Source: a virus. From it: DNA of 21,656 nucleotides. Within the stretch, counting starts at the first letter, position 1. Each line of letters starts with the position of its first letter. The stretch is from the UHGV virus genome UHGV-0374425; one strand, written 5' to 3'. The notes below the pieces were generated by a model that was not told where the DNA came from, ran no database searches, and worked only from the letters and a program-made list of their open reading frames with translations. The position numbers and the translations under genes are program-made. Below, piece by piece: positions 147 to 16,872 of the stretch.

Positions 147-524
147 ACCCCATAACGCCATCGTGGCTCCGGCCGTGAAGAACGACCCCACGATGGCCGC
201 CGCCCCCAGCACAATCTGCAGTCCGCCCTTTCCGGCACCGGCCAGTCGCGGCACAATGTGGATGACCGTTCCCTCACCCAGCTGTTCGTGAAGGCGGGCA
301 TACACCGCCTCCGGTGCCGTGTCCTCACCGGCAATACGTATCTGGTACCAGCCTTCGTTCATCTGACGGCGAAAGCCCGGCACCTGCATCGACAGTGCGC
401 GGATGGCTTCCGCTGCCGTGTTCACATACAGGCTGAGGCGGCGGCCAAATCGTTGTAAATCCCCGTGAAGGCAGATGCGTGCCAGTGGCGGTGACGCCAG
501 ACTGAATGCGTTCGTCGTTGCCAT
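147..524 (-). CDS. I: Tail assembly protein I, N-terminal 126 codons (lambda gpI-like); truncated at an inversion junction near nt 140-146
   Basis: Minus-strand ATG at 524 with GAGG upstream; translation MATTNAFSLASPPLARICLHGDLQRFGRR...GSFFTAGATMALWG matches lambda gpI N-terminus; overlaps the 3' end of K by about 100 nt as recalled for lambda. Frame not in ORF track; nt 1-146 continues without a stop. Confidence 0.65.
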
Positions 525-1159
525 TTTTCGGAATACCTCTCCCGTTTACTCAGTTGTTCAGGCAGATGGTGAAGCAGTTCACCGTTGCCGCAGTAAATGG
601 CGGCATGGTTGGCCACCGATGCGCCAAAGCAGCACAGCAGAATATCGCCCGCCTGTGCAGAGGACAGGGGCACCCGGTAAAAGCCCGTGGCCTCCATATT
701 GTCCAGGTACAGGTTCTGGCCGTTGCGCCACCACTCATCCTCGCGGTGAAAATCCGGCATTTCAGTCCCCGCCAGATGGTATGCATCCCGGAACAGCGTG
801 TAACAGTCCGTCACCCCGTGCGCAAAGCGCCGTCCGGTCAGGTGCGGAACGCAGCGGAATTTGTGAATGTCACCCCGGCAGACCAGCCACCAGGGCAGGG
901 CACTTTTTATCTGCAGTCGCCGGTCTGCCTCACTCAGCCAGGGCAGACCACCGGGATGACTGTGGACCAGCGCCACAATCTCACCCTGCATCTCCGCCCG
1001 CAGCCAGTCTTCCGGGGCAATACGAAAATACGCCTCCGGCGCTGCGGAGATATTCACACAGGGCAGGTACCGCTCGCCCTCCGTCGTGGTTATCACGAAG
1101 CCGCACGACTCCGCAGGCGCACACCGCCGGGCATGCGCCAATATATTGCTATAGAGCAT
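422..1159 (-). CDS. K: Tail assembly protein K (JAB/MPN metalloprotease-like plus NlpC/P60 domains)
   Basis: 245 aa ORF with HSHP (JAMM-like) motif N-terminally and a Cys...His NlpC/P60-like region (DCYTLF ... NHAAIY); sits between L and I; CAGGAG 6 nt upstream of ATG. Confidence 0.9.
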   Translation of the reverse strand: MLYSNILAHARRCAPAESCGFVITTTEGERYLPCVNISAAPEAYFRIAPEDWLRAEMQGEIVALVHSHPGGLPWLSEADRRLQIKSALPWWLVCRGDIHKFRCVPHLTGRRFAHGVTDCYTLFRDAYHLAGTEMPDFHREDEWWRNGQNLYLDNMEATGFYRVPLSSAQAGDILLCCFGASVANHAAIYCGNGELLHHLPEQLSKRERYSEKWQRRTHSVWRHRHWHASAFTGIYNDLAAASACM

Positions 1160-1172
1160 GAGAACTCCTGAT

Positions 1173-1200
1173 AAAAAACCCAGCCGAAGCTGGGTTTGTT
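1173..1200 (-). terminator. Stem-loop (CCCAGC-ttcg-GCTGGG) plus T-run immediately upstream of the K ribosome-binding site; terminates arc-ant transcription or is a late-operon linker hairpin
   Basis: Minus strand reads CCCAGCTTCGGCTGGGTTTTTTATCAGGAGTTCTCATG; an A-run on the other side makes it potentially bidirectional. Confidence 0.6.
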
Positions 1201-1213
1201 AAGTTGTCAATTG

Positions 1214-2128
1214 TCAGTAGCGATGCAGTGAAGGCGGCAACTCTTTGTTCTTAAGCCTTTCCCATGCCAGAAGGTTCGTCGGCCCGTCAGGCTCATAAAT
1301 ATCTATATCCCGCGTGTGATTAATTAAAACGCCCCTCGCCCTCCCGATGGTATACGAGAACTCATAGCCGTAGTCGTGGCATATGCCGGAATAGCCAGAC
1401 TGAATCAGTTTTAATGCGGGATACAACTCACGGAACAATGCCTGTGAGCGGTTAGCATAATCCCATAGCCATACAAGGCTGTCTGTTTCTTTTGCGGAAA
1501 GCTCGTTGGTGCTCTTCTCTTGTTTGCCGATTAACTCTCCTTCAAGCGGAACGCGAGCAGCAAGTGACAGAGCTTCGGTAAACTGCTCCTCGCTGATTTC
1601 TTTGTACGAACATCCAAAATGTGATTTCAGTGACGACCACATGGTGATCATCGCCTTCGCCTGTTTTTCCTTTGGCAGAGACTGACCGCGACTCATGACG
1701 AGTTGTTTAATGGCTTCCTGCTGTTCAGTAGTGATTTTCCCCGGCAACGCCTTTTTAGCTTTCAGTGTATTTCCGTAAGACCCCGTTTTACGAATGGATG
1801 GCAAAACTTCAGCTGTCACCCATTTGCGGAATTTGTGCGGGACTGAACCTTTATTGACGGCATCGCGGCAACGCAGAACCAATGTATACATACCTGATTC
1901 GCTCACAATGCTTAAATTCTGCTCACCACCAAGGGTGTAACTTAAAGTTACTCCCTTTTCATCGTCATCAAGTGCAGTAAGCGCCTTGCGTGAGTTAGTC
2001 AGATTTAAAGCATCACAAACATCTTTTGCTACAAACCACGGCTCACCGCACTTGTTGATGACGCGGATTTCACTGTCGCCGAATTTGAAGATGGTGAAAT
2101 CGTTTTGTGCCTTTGCTATACTTTTCAT
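1214..2128 (-). CDS. ant: Antirepressor Ant (P22 Ant-like, BRO-N type N-terminal domain)
   Basis: 304 aa; N-terminal [16 protein letters not shown]...LDDDEKG...GGEQ...IVSESGMY...[15 protein letters not shown] closely parallels P22 Ant as recalled; AGGAAA RBS; follows the arc-like gene. Confidence 0.85.
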
Positions 2129-2200
2129 GTCAATATTTCCTAATCCGATTTGTTGATACCGAAGCCCTGACTGTTACAGCAGTTGGGGCTTCAACTTTTT
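2129..2200 (+). ncRNA. sar: Candidate sar-like antisense RNA covering the ant ribosome-binding site
   Basis: Plus-strand hairpin GAAGCCC(2161-2167)/GGGCTTC(2186-2192) followed by AACTTTTTAGG in the arc-ant intergenic region, antisense to the ant RBS; possible -10 TATACT at 2117-2122. Matches the position of P22 sar. Confidence 0.4.
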
Positions 2201-2331
2201 AGGCTGCGAATAAGACGCTGCACTATTTCTGAATTTAAAGACCTGCCCTCCTCCTTAGCCTTTTCCTTCAATTTTTCTTTAATCTCTGGCGGGATACGAA
2301 TCCCTAATGGAGCGATATCTCTAACTTTCAT
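2191..2331 (-). CDS. arc: Arc-like ribbon-helix-helix repressor (46 aa)
   Basis: MKVRDIAPLGIRIPPEIKEKLKEKAKEEGRSLNSEIVQRLIRSLKS: strand-helix-helix pattern with GRS.NSEI motif as in Arc/Mnt/CopG; directly upstream of ant. The 87 aa version in the ORF track would run across the operator region and the mnt start, so the internal ATG at 2331 is preferred. Confidence 0.7.
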   Translation of the reverse strand: MKVRDIAPLGIRIPPEIKEKLKEKAKEEGRSLNSEIVQRLIRSLKS

Positions 2332-2345
2332 TTCTTTCCCAATTG

Positions 2346-2430
2346 CTACACCGTGATAACTAAATACTACACCGTGCTTATTTAAAGTCAAAGTTTTTTT
2401 GCCTACACTGTGTAGCAATGCTACAGCGTG
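2346..2430. promoter_or_regulatory. Divergent promoter/operator region with four copies of a CTACAC(C/T/G)GTG motif, one extended to the palindrome CTACACTGTGTAG
   Basis: Motif at 2346-2355, 2367-2376, 2403-2412 (palindrome 2403-2415) and 2421-2430. Candidate -35 TTGACT / -10 TAGTAT on the minus strand for arc-ant; candidate TTTAAA / TACACT on the plus strand for mnt. Confidence 0.55.
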
Positions 2431-2441
2431 CAGGAGGAAAA

Positions 2442-2690
2442 ATGAAAGGTGCAAGAGATATCAGTCCCTTGGGAATTAGGATTCCAGACTATTTAAAGAA
2501 ACGCATTCAGCAGGAAGCGGATAAAAACGGCAGATCAATGAACTCAGAGATTGTGCTTATCCTTCAAAAACATGTTGATAATCTTGATGGCCCTCGCTCA
2601 CTTGAAGGATTCGCTAACCAAGAAGCTGACAAATTCAAAGAGGCGCTGCTTGAGACGCTAAAGACCATGTATGGTAAGGATGAAAAATAA
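2442..2690 (+). CDS. mnt: Mnt-like ribbon-helix-helix repressor (82 aa)
   Basis: MKGARDISPLGIRIPDYLKKRIQQEADKNGRSMNSEIVLILQ...: same length and RHH pattern as P22 Mnt, with C-terminal extension; strong RBS CAGGAGG at 2431-2437; the upstream ATG at 2418 lacks an RBS. Confidence 0.75.
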   Translation: MKGARDISPLGIRIPDYLKKRIQQEADKNGRSMNSEIVLILQKHVDNLDGPRSLEGFANQEADKFKEALLETLKTMYGKDEK

Positions 2691-3226
2691 TGCTGCACAC
2701 AATTCATTTCTTATGCCCCGTTAACACTGCCACTGTTGGGCAACTTCAGAACCACTGTCTCACCGCATTATCTCAAGGCGCAACTGAATTAAATATCCAT
2801 ATATCAAGTCAGGGAGGGGAAACTGCCGCTGGCTTTACTGCGTATAACTTTCTTAAGTCACTCCCTGTTACCGTTAGAACTCACAACATAAGCAATGTTG
2901 AATCCATAGCTAATATCGTTTTCCTGGCTGGCTCAGAACGTTTCGCAAACCCATTATCAAGATTCCTGTTACATCCTCTATTATGGGTCTTTGCCACCCC
3001 AGCCGCCGACCATGCCAGATTGAGAGAGTACGGGAAATGCCTCGATAACGATCTTGATCGCTTCGTTGAGACGTTCAATATCGACATCGGAACCCATATT
3101 AGGTGGGCATCCCTGATAGCAGACTCGACCATTTTGGATGCTAACAAGGCTCTTGAGCATGGCATAATTAATTCCATAAAAACTGCAAGGCTGGCATCCA
3201 ATCAGGCAAACTGGTGGGTTGTTTGA
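2690..3226 (+). CDS. ClpP-family (S14-like) serine peptidase homolog, translationally coupled to mnt
   Basis: 178 aa; NIHISSQGGETAAGFTAYNFLKSLPVTVRTHNISNVESIANIVFLAGSERFANPLSRFLLHP aligns by eye with ClpP [62 protein letters not shown]; candidate Ser, His and Asp at ClpP-equivalent positions; start ATG overlaps the mnt stop (TAATG). Confidence 0.6.
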   Translation: MLHTIHFLCPVNTATVGQLQNHCLTALSQGATELNIHISSQGGETAAGFTAYNFLKSLPVTVRTHNISNVESIANIVFLAGSERFANPLSRFLLHPLLWVFATPAADHARLREYGKCLDNDLDRFVETFNIDIGTHIRWASLIADSTILDANKALEHGIINSIKTARLASNQANWWVV

Positions 3227-3251
3227 TGGGTAAATCATGATTACTCCTTAT

Positions 3252-3273
3252 AAAAAACCCACCTGACGGTGGG
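3252..3273 (-). terminator. Rho-independent terminator-like hairpin downstream of L
   Basis: Minus strand reads CCCACCGTCAGGTGGGTTTTTTAT directly after the L stop. Confidence 0.6.
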
Positions 3274-3282
3274 CATAATCCA

Positions 3283-3981
3283 TTACTGCGAAAGTTTATT
3301 AATGGAAAGGAAACCGCCAAAATTGCCGACATTCCTGCGCAGTTCACACCCGCGCATGCACTTGCTGCATCTGTCCTTACGGATATCCGTGGTGGGTTTA
3401 TCGAACTCATCCGCCACAGCCCCGCCCGTGTAACCACACTCATCAGAGCGGTAAGTCCACATACAGGTATTCGCCAGCATAATGCGACCGGGAAACAGCG
3501 CACCGTCCGTCTCCGTCGGTGTCGCCAGCACAAACGAGGCCGTCATGGCCGTCAGCGCTGATAACTGCTCCACCACCCACCGGTCCGTCAGCTCCTGCTC
3601 CGGGTCTGCCTCCGGATTCCCCGCCACAAAGTTCACCGCATCAAGAAAACGCGCATACACCCGGCGGCGGACCACCGTGGCACCCACCAGGCTCTGCAAA
3701 TCCTCCGCCATCCCGGTGACAAGGCCGAAAAGATTGGACACCGTCAGCGACGGGCGGGCACTGCTGCCCTTTCCGTTCATCTCAAAGCCGCTGCCCTCAA
3801 TCGGGTACGCCTGATATTCACGCCCCTGCCAGGTCACCGGCTCCCCTTTTTCATTCAGCTCATTACAGAAAAAATACCGCTCACCACCCTGCACCGTCAG
3901 GTCAATTTCCCAGAGTACCACCCGCGGTGACTGCTCTGATTTAACCGACTCATTCAGGCTTTCTTCGTTGATCTCCTGCAT
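3283..3981 (-). CDS. L: Minor tail protein L
   Basis: Translation ...VVLWEIDLT..GGERYFFCNE.NEKGEPVTWQGR.YQ.YPI.GSGFE.NGKG...GNFGGFLSINKLSQ parallels lambda gpL along its length; start placed at the ATG of MQEINEESL (3981), preceded by GGTGGA, rather than the upstream ATG of the track ORF. Confidence 0.9.
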   Translation of the reverse strand: MQEINEESLNESVKSEQSPRVVLWEIDLTVQGGERYFFCNELNEKGEPVTWQGREYQAYPIEGSGFEMNGKGSSARPSLTVSNLFGLVTGMAEDLQSLVGATVVRRRVYARFLDAVNFVAGNPEADPEQELTDRWVVEQLSALTAMTASFVLATPTETDGALFPGRIMLANTCMWTYRSDECGYTGGAVADEFDKPTTDIRKDRCSKCMRGCELRRNVGNFGGFLSINKLSQ

Positions 3982-3993
3982 AAACATCCACCC

Positions 3994-4020
3994 ATAAAAA
4001 AAGGGGCGCAATGCGCCCCT
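3994..4020 (-). terminator. Strong rho-independent terminator (GGGGCGCA/TGCGCCCC stem plus T7) ending the porin transcription unit, immediately upstream of the L start
   Basis: Minus strand reads AGGGGCGCATTGCGCCCCTTTTTTTATGGGTGGATGTTTATG. Confidence 0.7.
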
Positions 4021-4177
4021 GATAAAATAGTTCAATTAAAAAATCAAAAACGATGAAGGTAATAAAATGAAAATTAAATCAGCTAATAGCTGATCGCAGT
4101 GACCAGTGGAAATATAACTTCCACTGATACAGGCCATCTGTGAGGGCAGATGGCCTGTATTTATTTACCAGTAATCA

Positions 4178-5341
4178 TCAGAACTGATAAGTCATACCAA
4201 CAGCAACGATATCATCCGTTGCAATGCCCGCATCCCTGGTAAACTTATTCTCATCAACCAGATTGATTTTATAATCAACATAGGTGGACATATTTTTATT
4301 GAAGTAATATTTCGCACCTACGTCAACATACTTAACCAAATCCTGGTCACCATAGTTTTTACCACCTACAATGACATCCTGAGCACGAGACTGCAGGAAT
4401 GCCAGAGATGGACGCAGACCGAAATCAAACTGATACTGCAGTACCGCTTCAAAGTTTTGCGCTTTATCTGCAACTCCTTTATCACCAAAGGTCGTCAGAT
4501 TCTGAGTTTCGGAATATGTTGTAGCCAGGTAAAGGTTGTCAGCATCGTATTTTAGTCCGACTCCCCACATCTCAGCGTGTTTACCTTTTGCAACACTACC
4601 GGAATCAACAACGATCTGCTTTTCAGTCACTTTACCGGTTAAAGGATCAGTTTGTTCAATCGTCAGAGTACCATTCAGACCTTTTTCCTGATTATTGGTT
4701 CGGTCCGCATTAATATATGCGGCAACGATACCAAAACCTTCATATTCATAACTGGCTGAGAAACCGTGACCATCACCATTAGCTTCCCGGAGATCACCCC
4801 GATCATTTTTACCCTGGTACTGTGCCGCAAAATTCAGGCCATCGACAAGCCCAAAGAAATCTGTATTACGATAGGTTAATACCCCGGAAGTACGGGCTGT
4901 CATGAAGTTATCGGTCTGGGTCCAGCCATCACCGCCAAACTCTGGTAATACGTCAGTATAAGAACCAACATCGTACGCAATACCATAGTTACGACCATAA
5001 TCAATGGTGCCAAACTCACCAAACTTCAGACCTGCAAATGCAAGACGGGTTTTATTACCCGCAGCACCCTCTGATTCAGCTTTATTACCAGAGAACTGAT
5101 ATTCCCACTGACCAAAACCAGTCAACTGGTCATTAATCTGAGTTTCACCTTTAAAGCCCAGACGTGCGTATGTCTTATCTCCATCATCCCCCTTATCACT
5201 GGAGAAATAATGGAGTGCAGTTGCACGCCCATACACATCAAGTTTATTGCCATCTTTATTGTATACTTCTGCAGCCTGCGCCCCCGCTGCAAAAATTACA
5301 GCTGCTGCCACAGCTGAAAGTGCCACTGTCATTTTTTTCAT
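4178..5341 (-). CDS. OmpC/OmpF/NmpC-family general porin (prophage moron) with signal peptide
   Basis: 387 aa; signal peptide ending [51 protein letters not shown] and C-terminal ...YVDYKINL...GMTYQF match E. coli OmpC as recalled; AT-rich upstream region; hairpins downstream. Confidence 0.9.
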
Positions 5342-14934: not shown

Positions 14935-16872
14935 TCAGCCGCCGGACGCACTGCCGTAGTTCACTCCGGTGATCACCGCCACCGCCGCGGTACGGCGACG
15001 ACGCCAGTTGATCCAGCGCTCCGCACGGATGGCCACGCTGCCTGTCTGGAACATGGAAACCAGCTCCACCGGCGACGGCGTGGTACTGTCGCCGGTCGGC
15101 TCAGACTGCATTTCCAGTGATGCCTCGCGGGACATATCCACTGCCACGCCGCCGTCATCCGCCAGATAAATATCCGGGGCATTCACCAGCACCAGCTGGT
15201 CACCCACGTACTGAGAGACAATCACCGGCAGCCCCTGGAAGGTCCCCCCCAGCAGGGTCATGTCCGGATATTCCTTCTGACCCAGCGCATTTTTACGCAT
15301 GGACAGTGCCAGGGCATTTGTGCTGGACATCAGCCAGACCGCACCGGTGGGCTGCAGGTTTGCTGCCACAAACTGTCCAAACGCCGCCTCTGCATCCGCA
15401 TCCGGGTTACCGCTTGATGCCGTGCCCTTCACATCATGGGTGATGGACGCCGGGGAGACATCTGCCACCGCCGCTTTTTTCGGGTCCACAAAGTCTGTAT
15501 CCAGACGCGCCACCACCGCTTCCGCCAGCGCATTACGGACCAGTGCATCAGCAGCCGGACTGGAAAAACGGATCAATTCTTCCGTCAGTACCGCAATGGC
15601 CGACACCTTCGCATGACTGAAGGTGATGGATTCAAAATCAAACTTCGTCAGGGGTTTTGCCTTACCCTCCCCCACCCAGCCGGCAGCACCGCCGGACACC
15701 TGGGCGTGCACACGGATATTGAACGGCACCTGACGAAGTGCAGGGATCCCGCCCTGACCAAATCGCCCGATAATGGTCTGAGGACGCAGGTAATCAATAA
15801 AGTCCTGTGCATATTCCTGATATTCAGACAGGCTGCCTGCCCACTGCGGATCCGTGGTGGTCCCCGCGCCCACTGCCGATTTCAGGACATGATGCAGACG
15901 ACTGTCATCAGGATACTGACGACGGGCCACTTCCAGGGCTTCAGAGCGGACACCTTTAGCCGCAGCCAGTGATTTGGCAAAGCGGGCGAAGCCAATCCCC
16001 TTATCCAGTTTCTGCTCCACACGGATCACCGGCGCAGAAGCCACCGCGGCCACATTCCCGTTACCGGCCTGTTTCACCGGCTGCGCCGTGGCGGCCTTAC
16101 CGGCTTCCAGTTCACGCAGGCGCTTCAGGTGCGCATCCACCTGACGGATTTCCGCTGCGGTGTTGTCGTAATGCTCCTCCTCCTCCACATCCAGCGTGCG
16201 CCCTTCCTCTGCGGCTTTGGTCATGACCTCCTCAAGGGAGGCTGCCAGCGCTGCACGCTTGTTTTCAAAACTTTTAATCTGTTCGCCAATATTCATTATG
16301 GTCTTTTCCTTATGAAAAACGGTTGTTGACTGTGCCGCAGCGCCGGCAGAAGATGCGATTTTCACCACCGGTTTCCGGTTGCCGGACGCGGCAGAAAACG
16401 GGCGGTCGTAAGATTTAATGGTCCGGATGGTGCATTCCGCATTCGCGGGCACGGTAACGGCAGACACCTCCATCAGTTCCCAGCGCAGAAAATGCAGTCC
16501 ACCTCCGTCCAGAAAGGTGTATTCATGGGGACGGAAGCCCACGGACAGCCCCCTGACCAGCCCGGTCTTAATGGCCGCCCAGACCTCATCCAGCCGGGCA
16601 GCCAGTTGCGACGGCATATCCGGTACGGGCTTCACCAGTGTTGCCGTGATTTCCAGCCCTTCGCTGACCCGGCGCACCGTACACTGCCCCACCGGGCGGG
16701 AATGGTCATGCTGCCAGAGAAACGGGATCGCACTGCCAAACTCCGCGCCCTCCGGCTCCAGGATGTCACCATCCCGATCCGGAGAAGGCGTTGACGCAAT
16801 CCCGGTGATCACCCGCTCATCCTCACTGAAGGATTTCACCGTCAGCAGGGAGCAGGCCCGTTTAAGAGTCAC
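14935..16872 (-). CDS. Fused prohead protease (HK97 gp4-like) / scaffold-like coiled coil / HK97-family major capsid protein
   Basis: 645 aa; N-terminal about 170 aa has the prohead-protease pattern (...GIASTP..DRDGDIL..GAF...GLSVGF...ELMEVSAVTVPAN); then a charged coiled-coil segment; C-terminal about 400 aa capsid-like; GTG start with AGGAGG RBS. Confidence 0.8.
   Translation of the reverse strand: MTLKRACSLLTVKSFSEDERVITGIASTPSPDRDGDILEPEGAEFGSAIPFLWQHDHSRPVGQCTVRRVSEGLEITATLVKPVPDMPSQLAARLDEVWAAIKTGLVRGLSVGFRPHEYTFLDGGGLHFLRWELMEVSAVTVPANAECTIRTIKSYDRPFSAASGNRKPVVKIASSAGAAAQSTTVFHKEKTIMNIGEQIKSFENKRAALAASLEEVMTKAAEEGRTLDVEEEEHYDNTAAEIRQVDAHLKRLRELEAGKAATAQPVKQAGNGNVAAVASAPVIRVEQKLDKGIGFARFAKSLAAAKGVRSEALEVARRQYPDDSRLHHVLKSAVGAGTTTDPQWAGSLSEYQEYAQDFIDYLRPQTIIGRFGQGGIPALRQVPFNIRVHAQVSGGAAGWVGEGKAKPLTKFDFESITFSHAKVSAIAVLTEELIRFSSPAADALVRNALAEAVVARLDTDFVDPKKAAVADVSPASITHDVKGTASSGNPDADAEAAFGQFVAANLQPTGAVWLMSSTNALALSMRKNALGQKEYPDMTLLGGTFQGLPVIVSQYVGDQLVLVNAPDIYLADDGGVAVDMSREASLEMQSEPTGDSTTPSPVELVSMFQTGSVAIRAERWINWRRRRTAAVAVITGVNYGSASGG

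What the first reader, a model, noticed from the sequence alone, without database searches (positions are those of the whole stretch)
1157..3280. immI-like/ClpP-like moron bounded by two copies of a hairpin + T-run + Shine-Dalgarno + ATG linker
The 2.1-kb accessory block between L and K is flanked by two near-copies of the same about 40-nt element on the minus strand: CCCACCGTCAGGTGGGTTTTTTATAAGGAGTAATCATG (ending at 3236) and CCCAGCTTCGGCTGGGTTTTTTATCAGGAGTTCTCATG (the real K start at 1157). The stems differ by compensatory changes. The upstream copy carries a perfect translation-initiation region that now opens only an antisense ORF across the ClpP-like gene. This looks like the ancestral L-K junction duplicated when the module was acquired, marking the linker as a recombination site for moron exchange.
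Basis: seen in the sequence. Interest (0 to 1): 0.5.

Follow-up and report, generated by a model that had tools for sequence, protein, structure and literature searches.

The report
Two phage terminators flanking an antirepressor module
The two look-alike elements are not a duplicated gene junction. They are the end terminators of a P22-type antirepressor module inserted between two tail genes, and the start signal behind the upstream one opens a short antisense gene, hidden inside a ClpP-like gene, that appears to be conserved.

Summary
Two 38-nt units (hairpin, T-run, Shine-Dalgarno, ATG) lie on the minus strand at 3273-3236 and 1194-1157 and match at 31 of 38 positions.

The duplicated-junction reading fails. 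In 75 of 83 related L-K junctions, L and K are 5-10 nt apart, with no hairpin and no SD, and K starts MTQTESAI rather than MLYSNI. No single-linker form was seen.

The downstream hairpin is the annotated phage P22 ant terminator. At this site it is joined to a new SD, ATG and five new K codons.

The upstream hairpin is a portable terminator core. I found 52 instances, with 19 left and 9 right flank types in 24 combinations.

The module is P22 immI-like: a divergent RHH gene, arc, an Rfam-confirmed sar RNA, and ant.

The upstream SD and ATG are probably not a relic. ClpP-like genes only 44-79% identical also carry an antisense SD and ATG at their stop codon, followed by a 61-97-codon open frame. 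Codons that would create antisense stops fall from about 35% of Leu/Ser codons outside the overlap to 0-5% inside it. Third-position divergence is also suppressed, mainly where the antisense ORF is intact.

Translation of this ORF is untested.

The parts
3283..3981 (-). Tail tip gene L; stop codon TAA at 3285-3283.
   Evidence: Pfam Phage_tail_L, E 1e-92. RefSeq annotation of the 100% identical E. coli SCU-106 prophage.
3274..3282 (-). 9-nt filler TGGATTATG between the L stop and hairpin 1. Probably the tail of an ant gene fragment carried in from the donor.
   Evidence: The same GGATTATG directly abuts hairpin 1 at the end of a short ant fragment in L236 and L248. It is absent from empty sites.
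3250..3273 (-). Hairpin 1 core CCCACCGTCAGGTGGGTTTTTTAT. An intrinsic terminator facing the late-gene direction. It sits at the mnt-side end of the immI-like module and is a portable module joint.
   Evidence: Terminator scan. Fold of the 50-nt unit -15.8 kcal/mol. Annotated 'terminator' in phage Emek. 52 distinct instances with 19 left and 9 right flank types.
3236..3249 (-). Initiation region AAGGAG-TAATC-ATG of the antisense ORF. It lies outside the ClpP-like coding sequence.
   Evidence: Read. The whole element 1, including this SD and ATG (39 nt identical), starts the annotated orf61 in phage Emek. It stays with the ClpP-like gene across at least 8 outer contexts.
2981..3238 (-). Antisense ORF (asORF), 85 aa, nested codon-for-codon in the 3' half of the ClpP-like gene. 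A candidate late-expressed overlapping gene.
   Evidence: phrog_7758, E 2e-61. Depletion of TTA/CTA/TCA codons in the overlap, conserved SD and ATG, and suppressed third-position divergence.
2690..3226 (+). ClpP-like serine protease gene, 178 aa, lacking the N-terminal region of canonical ClpP. Its ATG overlaps the RHH gene's stop (ATGA).
   Evidence: Pfam CLP_protease, E 2e-11. Closest solved structure 9UXT, P. plecoglossicida ClpP1, E 2e-35.
2418..2690 (+). Mnt-position ribbon-helix-helix repressor gene, transcribed divergently from arc. RefSeq uses a start 24 nt further in.
   Evidence: Pfam Arc-like RHH, E 7e-8. RefSeq 'Arc family DNA-binding protein'.
2332..2417 (.). Divergent control region. 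It holds a sigma-70-like promoter towards arc/ant (TTGACT-16-TAGTAT, 2391-2364, minus strand) and repeated GGTGTAG motifs that are candidate operators.
   Evidence: Promoter scan. Repeats read. No functional test was done.
2191..2331 (-). Arc-like repressor gene, 46 aa.
   Evidence: Pfam Arc, E 5e-13.
2130..2196 (+). sar-type antisense RNA spanning the arc-ant junction, with its own terminator hairpin (2161-2192).
   Evidence: Rfam RF00262: 69.4 bits against a gathering score of 43, E 1e-13, full-length match. Terminator scan.
1214..2128 (-). Antirepressor gene ant (BRO-N plus P22AR_C domains).
   Evidence: Pfam. phrog_245 'anti-repressor Ant', E 1e-103.
1171..1194 (-). Hairpin 2 with T-run: CCCAGCTTCGGCTGGGTTTTTTAT. 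This is the P22 ant terminator.
   Evidence: The hairpin and T-run are identical to the stretch annotated 'terminator' in P22 BK000583 at 16012-16035. It follows the 3' end of ant in all contexts examined. Fold of the 59-nt unit -17.9 kcal/mol.
1142..1170 (-). Junction-specific segment CAGGAGTTCTC-ATG-CTCTATAGCAATATA: a new SD, a new start codon and five new codons for K. It replaces the native 10-nt spacer and the first eight K codons.
   Evidence: Comparison of occupied and empty sites. The segment is absent after the same hairpin in P22-like contexts.
422..1159 (-). Tail tip gene K (JAB/MPN plus NlpC/P60 domains). N-terminus MLYSNI here, MTQTESAI at empty sites.
   Evidence: Pfam. Junction comparison.
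3979..4020 (-). A third unit of the same design with an unrelated hairpin: the terminator of the OmpC-like porin moron (4020-4002), followed by GGGTGGA and the L start ATG (3981-3979).
   Evidence: Terminator scan. Fold -17.8 kcal/mol. Empty M-L junctions have the M stop overlapping the L start (TGATG).

Best explanation
A 2.14-kb P22 immI-type immunity module sits at the L|K boundary of a lambdoid tail operon. Its layout is: RHH repressor and ClpP-like gene on one strand, arc, sar RNA and ant on the other. The module (window 3282-1142) replaces 34 nt of the empty site.

The two look-alike elements are the outer ends of the module's two divergent operons. Each is an intrinsic terminator with its U-tract on the late-gene strand, followed by a ribosome-binding site for the next ORF on that strand.

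Element 2 is the P22 ant terminator joined to a new SD, ATG and five codons for K. At empty sites K has no SD and starts 5-10 nt after the L stop, so it is presumably translated by coupling to L. The insertion breaks that coupling and supplies an independent start.

Element 1 is a portable terminator core that recurs at module joints in many enterobacterial temperate phages. Its SD and ATG open a short ORF nested antisense in the 3' half of the ClpP-like gene, and this ORF appears to be maintained by selection.

Inferred mechanism. In the lysogen the two terminators insulate the module. Hairpin 1 blocks read-in towards ant, and hairpin 2 stops ant-promoter transcripts from running into K-I-J. 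During lytic growth, antiterminated late transcription reads through both. Ribosomes then reload at the two SDs, translating the antisense ORF and K.

What is shown: the anatomy, the empty-site comparison, the identity to the P22 terminator, the reassorted flanks, and the codon signatures. What is inferred: termination, read-through, coupling, translation of the antisense ORF, and its function.
For: Empty versus occupied sites: 75 of 83 junctions are empty and none has a hairpin. Occupied sites always carry both elements.

Base composition: tail genes 58-62% GC, the module 39-48%.

immI identity: Arc, RHH and Ant domains, sar RNA above Rfam's gathering score, and hairpin 2 identical to the annotated P22 ant terminator.

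Hairpin 2 follows ant everywhere, but the SD-ATG-K segment appears only at L-K sites.

Hairpin 1 with its SD and ATG is constant next to the ClpP-like gene, while the outer flank changes in at least 8 ways. The core has 19 left and 9 right flank types, with four-gamete combinations. The same 39 nt precede a different small gene in phage Emek, where the hairpin is annotated as a terminator.

Antisense ORF, start and open frame: of 17 ClpP-like clusters at 85% identity, 10 have an antisense SD and ATG at the stop codon, with open frames of 61-97 codons (9 of 10 reach 75). The 7 clusters without a start have open frames of 22-83 codons (1 of 7 reaches 75).

Antisense ORF, codon usage: Leu TTA+CTA falls from 35% outside the overlap to 5% inside, and Ser TCA from 34% to 0%. 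Control codons are unchanged: TTG+CTT 38 to 41%, TCT+AGT 32 to 32%, four-fold A-ending 28 to 28%. Pooled Fisher p = 9e-14.

Antisense ORF, divergence: third-position differences are 0.31 in the overlap versus 0.56 outside for pairs with both antisense ORFs intact, but 0.50 versus 0.58 when one has decayed. First-position differences are not reduced.

Genome records from four further Enterobacterales species show both states. Two of the six loci have an SD, an ATG and an 84-89-codon open frame, including a Pantoea dispersa gene only 44% identical; one repeats a lineage already sampled; three have no start and an interrupted frame.
Against: No transcription, termination or translation data exist here.

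The antisense protein has no homologues outside the overlap: only 7 near-identical clusters in 5.8 billion proteins. It has no Pfam or PDB match. Its single-sequence AlphaFold2 model is poor, pLDDT 42.

The N-terminal half of the antisense protein is poorly conserved and rich in Cys, Gly and Pro, as antisense translations often are.

The commoner L-K module, which lacks ClpP, has hairpin 1 but no SD or ATG. Translation at that point is therefore not needed for the tail operon.

The lineages compared are related, so the pooled p-values overstate independence.

On the ClpP-like strand, hairpin 1 lacks a U-tract at this site. How the RHH/ClpP-like transcript ends here is unclear.
Confidence: 0.78

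Rival explanations
1. One reading: the ancestral L-K linker was duplicated when the module inserted, in the manner of a target-site duplication, so both copies descend from one junction.
For: 31 of 38 positions are identical, the elements are in direct orientation, and they flank the insert.
Against: Empty sites have no hairpin, no SD and a different K start, and no single-linker form was found. Both elements occur far from any L-K junction, each tied to a different gene. The commoner L-K module has hairpin 1 without the SD and ATG. The hairpin resemblance is at background level for this class of terminator.
Confidence: 0.03
2. The antisense ORF is not functional. The SD and ATG after hairpin 1 are a leftover of another late-strand gene start, such as Emek orf61, kept after a crossover at the ATG. 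The open frame would be a by-product of codon usage in the ClpP-like gene.
For: The same 39 nt start a different, ordinary-looking small gene in Emek. The antisense protein has no homologues or confident fold. The codon-aligned antisense frame is the frame most prone to spurious long ORFs (general knowledge).
Against: Lineages with different hairpins and different SD sequences (44-79% protein identity) also have an SD and ATG at the ClpP-like stop codon and an open frame. The depletion is specific to the three antisense-stop-generating codons, not to AT-rich codons in general. Loss of the start goes with loss of the open frame. Third-position constraint appears mainly where the ORF is intact.
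Confidence: 0.2
3. Translation of the antisense frame matters, but the peptide does not. For example, ribosomes on the late transcript could shield it from Rho or RNases, or could disrupt pairing with the ClpP-like mRNA.
For: The open frame and the start are conserved, while much of the peptide sequence is not. At high divergence, synonymous differences in the overlap reach the same level as outside it.
Against: The ORF covers only about 255 of roughly 900 antisense nucleotides before arc. The ClpP-less module manages without any start there. Suppressed third-position divergence at moderate distances points to constraint on the peptide itself.
Confidence: 0.12
4. The hairpin cores are active recombination sites: homologous exchange within the 24-39-nt identical cores drives module shuffling. 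The alternative is that they are simply boundaries that survive selection after illegitimate recombination. This rival is compatible with the best explanation.
For: Sequence identity breaks exactly at the core edges in many contexts, and all four combinations of two left flanks with two right flanks exist. Hairpin 2 shows the same promiscuity.
Against: 24 nt is at the lower limit for RecA-type exchange (general knowledge). Selection to keep a complete terminator would give the same pattern. Part of hairpin 2's spread may be convergence on a stable UUCG tetraloop hairpin.
Confidence: 0.3

Closest known systems
Phage P22 immI region (mnt, arc, sar RNA, ant and the ant terminator), embedded in the late operon upstream of tailspike gene 9
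   Same: Divergent RHH repressor genes, arc followed by ant, a sar antisense RNA (Rfam match above the gathering score), and an identical ant terminator hairpin. The module also lies inside a late operon just upstream of a tail gene that must be reached by read-through. P22 late transcription reading through the ant terminator to express gene 9 is established knowledge (Berget, Poteete and Sauer 1983, from memory).
   Different: The host operon is a lambda-type tail-tip operon (L|K), not a P22 operon. A ClpP-like gene with a nested antisense ORF follows the mnt-position gene, where P22 has orf59a. The mnt-side terminator is a different hairpin with its U-tract on the late strand, whereas P22's faces the mnt strand. 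The downstream gene's start was rebuilt.
Morons of lambdoid phages (Juhala et al. 2000; Hendrix et al. 2000, from memory)
   Same: Extra DNA lies between two genes that are adjacent in relatives, has lower GC, and has its own promoter-like site and terminator. The OmpC-like porin between M and L in the same window is a second example.
   Different: This is a two-operon regulatory module rather than a single lysogenic-conversion gene. It brings a replacement initiation region and new first codons for the downstream structural gene.
Conserved boundary or linker sequences proposed as recombination joints between lambdoid phage modules (for example the HK620 analysis of Clark et al. 2001, from memory)
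   Same: A short identical sequence is found with many different neighbours on both sides, including reassorted combinations.
   Different: Here the joint is a functional terminator, so selection alone could explain why it is retained. No mechanism was tested.
Antisense overlapping protein-coding genes reported in E. coli O157:H7 (such as nog1 and laoB, from memory), and overprinted genes of viruses
   Same: A short ORF lies fully inside a longer annotated gene on the opposite strand, has its own SD and ATG, and has no homologues outside the overlap.
   Different: The support here is comparative: conserved starts, specific depletion of stop-generating codons, and lineage-specific third-position constraint across lineages down to 44% identity. 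There is no expression evidence.
Translational coupling of adjacent phage structural genes
   Same: At empty sites K starts 5-10 nt after the L stop with no SD, and M and L overlap as TGATG.
   Different: At the occupied site the coupling is replaced by an independent strong SD placed 5 nt before the ATG.

Membership tests
P22-type immI module | Arc-family repressor gene immediately upstream of ant on the same strand | tested here: met
   Pfam Arc, E 5e-13, at 2191-2331 (minus). Ant (BRO-N plus P22AR_C) at 1214-2128 (minus).
P22-type immI module | Divergently transcribed second RHH repressor in the mnt position | tested here: met
   RHH protein at 2418-2690 (plus), Pfam Arc-like E 7e-8. It is not a close orthologue of P22 Mnt.
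P22-type immI module | sar antisense RNA across the arc-ant junction | tested here: met
   Rfam RF00262: 69.4 bits against a gathering score of 43, full-length match, 2130-2196 (plus).
P22-type immI module | Intrinsic terminator after ant that late transcription must read through | tested here: met
   The sequence is identical to the annotated P22 terminator. Read-through itself was not testable.
P22-type immI module | Arc and Mnt operators overlapping the divergent promoters | tested here: inconclusive
   A promoter-like site and repeated GGTGTAG motifs lie in 2332-2417. No binding evidence.
Moron | Flanking genes are adjacent in close relatives | tested here: met
   75 of 83 L-K junctions are empty.
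Moron | Base composition differs from the surrounding operon | tested here: met
   39-48% GC against 58-62%.
Moron | Own promoter and own terminator | tested here: inconclusive
   Terminators are predicted, and annotated elsewhere. The promoter is only a 9-of-12 consensus match, and the region's promoter count is no higher than in shuffles.
Duplicated junction or target-site duplication | One copy of the repeat is present at unoccupied sites | tested here: not met
   No hairpin or SD at any empty site.
Duplicated junction or target-site duplication | The repeats are specific to this insertion site | tested here: not met
   Both occur in many unrelated contexts.
Recombination joint (boundary sequence) | The same short sequence occurs with different neighbours on both sides, including reassorted combinations | tested here: met
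   19 left and 9 right flank types in 24 combinations. Four-gamete sets are present.
Recombination joint (boundary sequence) | Crossovers occur preferentially within the sequence | not testable with these tools
   This needs marked-phage crosses.
Antisense overlapping protein-coding gene | Conserved start codon with SD in diverged lineages | tested here: met
   10 of 17 clusters at 85% identity, with unrelated hairpin and SD sequences.
Antisense overlapping protein-coding gene | The open frame is longer than synonymous-codon shuffles allow | tested here: met
   Per-lineage p = 0.003-0.11. Specific codon depletion.
Antisense overlapping protein-coding gene | Purifying selection in the antisense frame | tested here: met
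   Third-position differences 0.31 against 0.56 where both antisense ORFs are intact, and 0.50 against 0.58 where one has decayed. No formal overlapping-gene dN/dS was run.
Antisense overlapping protein-coding gene | Evidence of translation or of a protein product | not testable with these tools
   No expression data. RefSeq never annotates it. It is called in a few phage records, giving phrog_7758.

The most novel reading that the evidence does not exclude
The ClpP-like moron, found in late operons of temperate Enterobacterales phages and usually oriented against them, carries a second, unannotated protein-coding gene of about 77-99 codons. It is nested codon-for-codon antisense in the gene's 3' half. 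It starts at an SD and ATG placed right behind a late-strand terminator, so it should be made only from antiterminated or read-through late transcripts. Its likely role is to modulate the ClpP-like protease or its mRNA when the phage turns lytic. The 24-nt terminator core in front of it also serves as a reusable joint for shuffling immunity modules.
Probability: 0.6. Interest if true: 0.7.

Novelty: new variant of a known kind. Interest (0 to 1): 0.5.

Why it matters
As first stated, the finding reduces to known biology. A P22-type immunity module sits as a moron in a lambda-type tail operon and is bounded by ordinary terminators, one of them the classic P22 ant terminator.

Three points go further.

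1. It gives a base-level picture of how a moron can enter a translationally coupled operon without killing the downstream gene: the insert brings a replacement SD, start codon and first codons for K.

2. It gives a countable example of a short terminator core with reassorted neighbours. This bears on the old question of whether phage mosaic joints arise by homologous exchange at boundary sequences or by illegitimate recombination followed by selection.

3. It gives comparative, codon-level evidence for an antisense gene nested in a ClpP-like gene. Most claims of antisense overlapping genes in bacteria rest on expression data from a single strain. Here the start codon lies outside the ClpP-like coding sequence, so it can be knocked out cleanly.

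The cassette is present in about 128-155 of 5,426 complete E. coli genomes, so strains for testing are available.

Tried and rejected
1. Duplicated ancestral junction. Rejected by the empty-site survey.

2. Single-linker deletion products from recombination between the two elements. None was found in about 150 loci. The longest exact run the two elements share is 12 nt.

3. Homology of the two hairpins. It cannot be shown; their distance is within the background for this class of terminator.

4. Defence-system identity for the RHH, ClpP-like, Arc or Ant proteins. No PADLOC hits.

5. Function of the antisense protein by homology or fold. No Pfam or NCBIfam match, no PDB profile hit, no Pfam hit for any diverged member, only near-identical database relatives, and a low-confidence AlphaFold2 model.

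6. The genome-contig scan with a ClpP-like profile returned only 6 loci. These were useful but too few for a broad test.

7. Literature searches for a ClpP-like gene in immI modules, or for an antisense gene in it, found nothing relevant.

8. The extended pairing of GAUUAU with GUAAUC around hairpin 1 in the predicted fold. I treated it as chance, because the upstream arm is specific to the L-K context.

9. The idea that translation behind hairpin 1 is needed for the tail operon. Weakened by the commoner ClpP-less module, which has no start there.

Full report
WHAT IS THERE

The window is the late region of a lambdoid E. coli prophage, read on the minus strand. It is 100% identical to a prophage of strain SCU-106.

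Gene order on the minus strand is as follows:
- H, then M.
- An OmpC-like porin gene.
- L (3283-3981).
- A block that is about 2.1 kb from the L stop to the K start; 2,141 nt of it (3282-1142) is foreign.
- K (422-1159), then I.

The foreign block holds these features:
- A ClpP-like gene (2690-3226, plus strand).
- An RHH repressor gene (2418-2690, plus strand).
- An Arc-like gene (2191-2331, minus strand).
- An antirepressor gene ant with BRO-N and P22AR_C domains (1214-2128, minus strand).

Tail genes are 58-62% GC. The block is 39-48% GC, and the porin segment 36-45%.

THE OBSERVATION

- Element 1: CCCACCGTCAGGTGGG-TTTTTT-AT-AAGGAG-TAATC-ATG, at 3273-3236.
- Element 2: CCCAGCTTCGGCTGGG-TTTTTT-AT-CAGGAG-TTCTC-ATG, at 1194-1157.

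They share 31 of 38 positions and one compensatory stem pair. Both fold stably, at -15.8 and -17.9 kcal/mol, well beyond shuffled controls. The upstream ATG opens an 85-aa ORF antisense to the ClpP-like gene.

A third unit of the same design, with an unrelated hairpin, precedes L behind the porin gene at 4020-3979.

IS THE RESEMBLANCE MORE THAN GENERIC?

Hardly. Among 22 distinct perfect terminator hairpins (6-bp stem, 4-nt loop) in 1.69 Mb of related phage DNA, 22% of pairs are as close as these two or closer. That set includes close variants of the same hairpins. After masking the paired arm, the T-run, AGGAG and the ATG, 13 of 19 free positions match by my count. This is suggestive only.

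TEST OF THE DUPLICATION MODEL

I fetched 80 viral contigs that encode an L protein at least 93% identical to this one. I added annotated phages with and without the module.

Of the 83 L-K junctions I could read, 75 are empty. They read L-TAA, then ATCCCGGTTT or ATCC[A/C], then ATGACACAGAC... There is no hairpin and no SD, and K starts MTQTESAILAHARR.

Occupied sites always read L-TAA-TGGATTATG-hairpin 1 ... hairpin 2-TTTTTTATCAGGAGTTCTC-ATGCTCTATAGCAATATA-TTGGCGCA. K then starts MLYSNILAHARR. No single-linker form exists in the sample.

So both hairpins, K's SD, its ATG and its first five codons after the ATG all arrived with foreign DNA. Nothing was duplicated from an ancestral junction.

Only 15 of 5,426 complete E. 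coli genomes have this module version at L-K. A smaller version without the ClpP-like gene is commoner and occurs in many Stx phages.

WHAT ELEMENT 2 IS

The hairpin and T-run follow the 3' end of ant in every context examined. They are identical to the stretch annotated 'terminator' after ant in phage P22 (BK000583, 16012-16035) and in phages epsilon34 and Emek.

In P22-like phages the hairpin is followed by TATGCCCAAAATTCACC..., the leader of tailspike gene 9. Only at L-K sites is it followed by CAGGAGTTCTCATG plus the new K codons.

At empty sites K has no SD and begins 5-10 nt after the L stop. I infer that it is normally translated by coupling to L, and that the insert supplies an independent start to make up for the broken coupling.

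The M-L junction shows the same logic. Empty sites have the M stop overlapping the L start (TGATG). The porin insert ends with its terminator directly in front of L's ribosome-binding site.

WHAT THE MODULE IS

It matches the P22 immI layout:
- Two divergent RHH repressor genes.
- arc followed by ant.
- The same ant terminator.
- A sar antisense RNA at 2130-2196 (plus strand), which scores 69.4 bits against Rfam's gathering score of 43.

P22's immI also lies inside a late operon, just upstream of a tail gene. From memory, antiterminated late transcription reaches that gene by reading through the ant terminator (Berget et al. 1983).

The differences here are the host operon, the ClpP-like gene in the position of P22 orf59a, and a different mnt-side terminator. 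P22's mnt terminator has its U-tract on the mnt strand, whereas hairpin 1 has its U-tract on the late strand.

WHAT ELEMENT 1 IS

Copies of the ClpP-like gene that are 98-99% identical always carry the same 3' flank, including the SD-ATG complement and hairpin 1. The sequence beyond the hairpin changes in at least 8 ways. Most of these contexts are P22-like phages, where the upstream gene's stop codon lies 0-6 nt from the hairpin.

An exact search for the 24-nt core CCCACCGTCAGGTGGGTTTTTTAT found 52 distinct instances. They have 19 left flank types and 9 right flank types in 24 combinations. All four combinations of two unrelated left flanks with two unrelated right flanks are present.

Right-hand partners of the core include:
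- The ClpP-like cassette.
- A different small late-strand gene, orf61 of phage Emek. There the identity runs through the SD and ATG, and the hairpin is annotated as a terminator.
- Mnt-like genes whose coding sequence ends inside the hairpin loop (...KKPT-stop), as in the ClpP-less L-K module.

The hairpin 2 core is equally promiscuous, with 134 instances, 25 left flank types and 27 right flank types.

The terminator cores are recurrent exchange joints. These data cannot say whether crossovers happen inside them or whether selection simply preserves whole terminators.

The 9-nt filler TGGATTATG to the left of hairpin 1 matches the end of a short ant fragment that abuts the hairpin in two other contigs. 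This hints at the donor arrangement.

THE UNEXPECTED PART: A CONSERVED ANTISENSE ORF

ClpP-like genes that are only 44-79% identical to this one lie in other phage types, and in the seven contexts I examined they are oriented against the late operon. Some lie between the tape-measure gene and the next tail gene, and others between the lysis genes and terminase. Their hairpins and SD sequences are unrelated to those here. Most still have an antisense SD and ATG at or overlapping the ClpP-like stop codon (typically TGACAT...TTCTCC), followed by an open frame in the same codon-aligned register.

Start and open frame go together. At 85% clustering there are 17 lineages.
- 10 have the start, with open frames of 61-97 codons; 9 of these reach 75 codons.
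- 7 lack the start, with open frames of 22-83 codons; 1 of these reaches 75 codons.

Codon usage is specifically shifted. In this window the ClpP-like gene has 11 TTA, CTA or TCA codons in codons 1-98 and none in codons 99-178. These are the only codons that read as stops on the antisense strand. Across the open-frame lineages:
- Leu TTA+CTA falls from 35% outside the overlap to 5% inside.
- Ser TCA falls from 34% to 0%.
- Control codons do not move: TTG+CTT 38 to 41%, TCT+AGT 32 to 32%, four-fold A-ending 28 to 28%.

The pooled Fisher test gives p = 9e-14. This overstates independence, because the lineages are related. Synonymous-codon shuffles give p = 0.003-0.11 per lineage.

Divergence by codon position also fits a second coding constraint.
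- For pairs in which both antisense ORFs are intact, third-position differences are 0.31 in the overlap and 0.56 outside it.
- For pairs with a decayed antisense ORF, the values are 0.50 and 0.58.
- First- and second-position differences are not lower in the overlap, which argues against simple recent recombination.

This is the pattern expected if the antisense frame is under purifying selection. The ORF matches phrog_7758, so a few phage records annotate it. RefSeq never does.

CAVEATS ON THE ANTISENSE ORF

- There are no expression data.
- There are no homologues outside the overlap, no domain or structure match, and only a low-confidence single-sequence model.
- The N-terminal half is poorly conserved.
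- The ClpP-less module has no start behind hairpin 1. Whatever the ORF does is therefore tied to the ClpP-like cassette, not to the tail operon.

HOW IT MOST LIKELY WORKS

Shown: the anatomy, the empty-site comparison, the identity to the P22 terminator, the reassorted flanks, and the codon signatures.

Inferred for the lysogen: hairpin 1 stops stray transcription coming from L before it runs antisense over the repressor operon and on into arc-ant. Hairpin 2 ends ant-promoter transcripts before K.

Inferred for lytic growth: Q-modified polymerase ignores both terminators. Ribosomes reload at the two SDs and translate the antisense ORF and K. Because the antisense ORF sits behind a terminator with no visible promoter, it should be a late product. 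My best guess is that it modulates the ClpP-like protease or its mRNA once the phage commits to lysis.

VERDICT

The duplication story is wrong. The elements are ordinary terminators, one of them already annotated in P22, with initiation regions behind them.

The immI-type module at L|K is a variant of a known kind. Two things give moderate interest: countable evidence that a 24-nt terminator core acts as a module joint, and a candidate conserved antisense gene nested in the ClpP-like moron.

Noticed in passing
window 4178-5341 (minus) and 3994-4084 (minus): An OmpC-like porin gene (Pfam Porin_1, E 3e-139) sits as a second low-GC moron between M and L. The stretch between its stop and L gives a sub-threshold MicF match (28 bits against a gathering score of 79) that ends in the porin terminator. 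This recalls the IpeX small RNA downstream of prophage porin genes (from memory).
   Followed up: partly
window 2690-3226 (plus): The closest solved relative of the ClpP-like protein is P. plecoglossicida ClpP1 (PDB 9UXT, E 2e-35). That protein is an N-terminally truncated paralogue with low intrinsic activity. It does not bind ClpX and forms mixed rings with canonical ClpP (PMC12900304). The prophage protein may likewise co-assemble with host ClpP. Ser72 and His95 are invariant in the 10-sequence alignment.
   Followed up: partly
window 2687-2693: The RHH repressor gene's stop codon overlaps the ClpP-like start codon (ATGA). The two are probably translationally coupled in one operon, in the position where P22 has mnt and orf59a.
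   Followed up: no
L003 1210-1245 (Stx2a_WGPS6) and several IMG/VR loci: In ClpP-less modules the Mnt-like coding sequence runs through the A-run and the 5' arm of hairpin 1 and stops in the loop (...KKPT-stop). The terminator there is partly coding.
   Followed up: partly
L201 2636-2821 (phage Emek orf61): The same hairpin 1, SD and ATG start a 61-aa ORF on the late strand that looks like a coiled coil. Its 3' end overlaps a convergent gene by 26 nt. It takes the place of the ClpP-like cassette.
   Followed up: partly
L236 about 2726-2806 and L248 about 2815-2943; window 3274-3282: A short ant fragment ending in GGGATTATG directly abuts hairpin 1 in two contigs. The 9-nt filler after the L stop in this window (TGGATTATG) looks like the last trace of that fragment.
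   Followed up: partly
L008, L015, L086-L088 (PhiR12_1-type copies): A variant of element 1 has GGTGGG changed to GGTGGT, which weakens the stem and lengthens the T-run. It also has AAGGAGT changed to AAGGAGC. The ATG and the 85-codon frame are kept.
   Followed up: no
L241 6663-7910; L133; L147: Some contigs carry two hairpin 1 cores 1.2 kb apart with a truncated ClpP-like gene, or a ClpP-like gene split by an insertion. This shows ongoing rearrangement at the locus.
   Followed up: no
window 1142-1159 versus empty sites: K proteins come in two N-terminal forms: MLYSNI with the module and MTQTESAI without it. The origin of the 15 new coding nucleotides was not traced.
   Followed up: no
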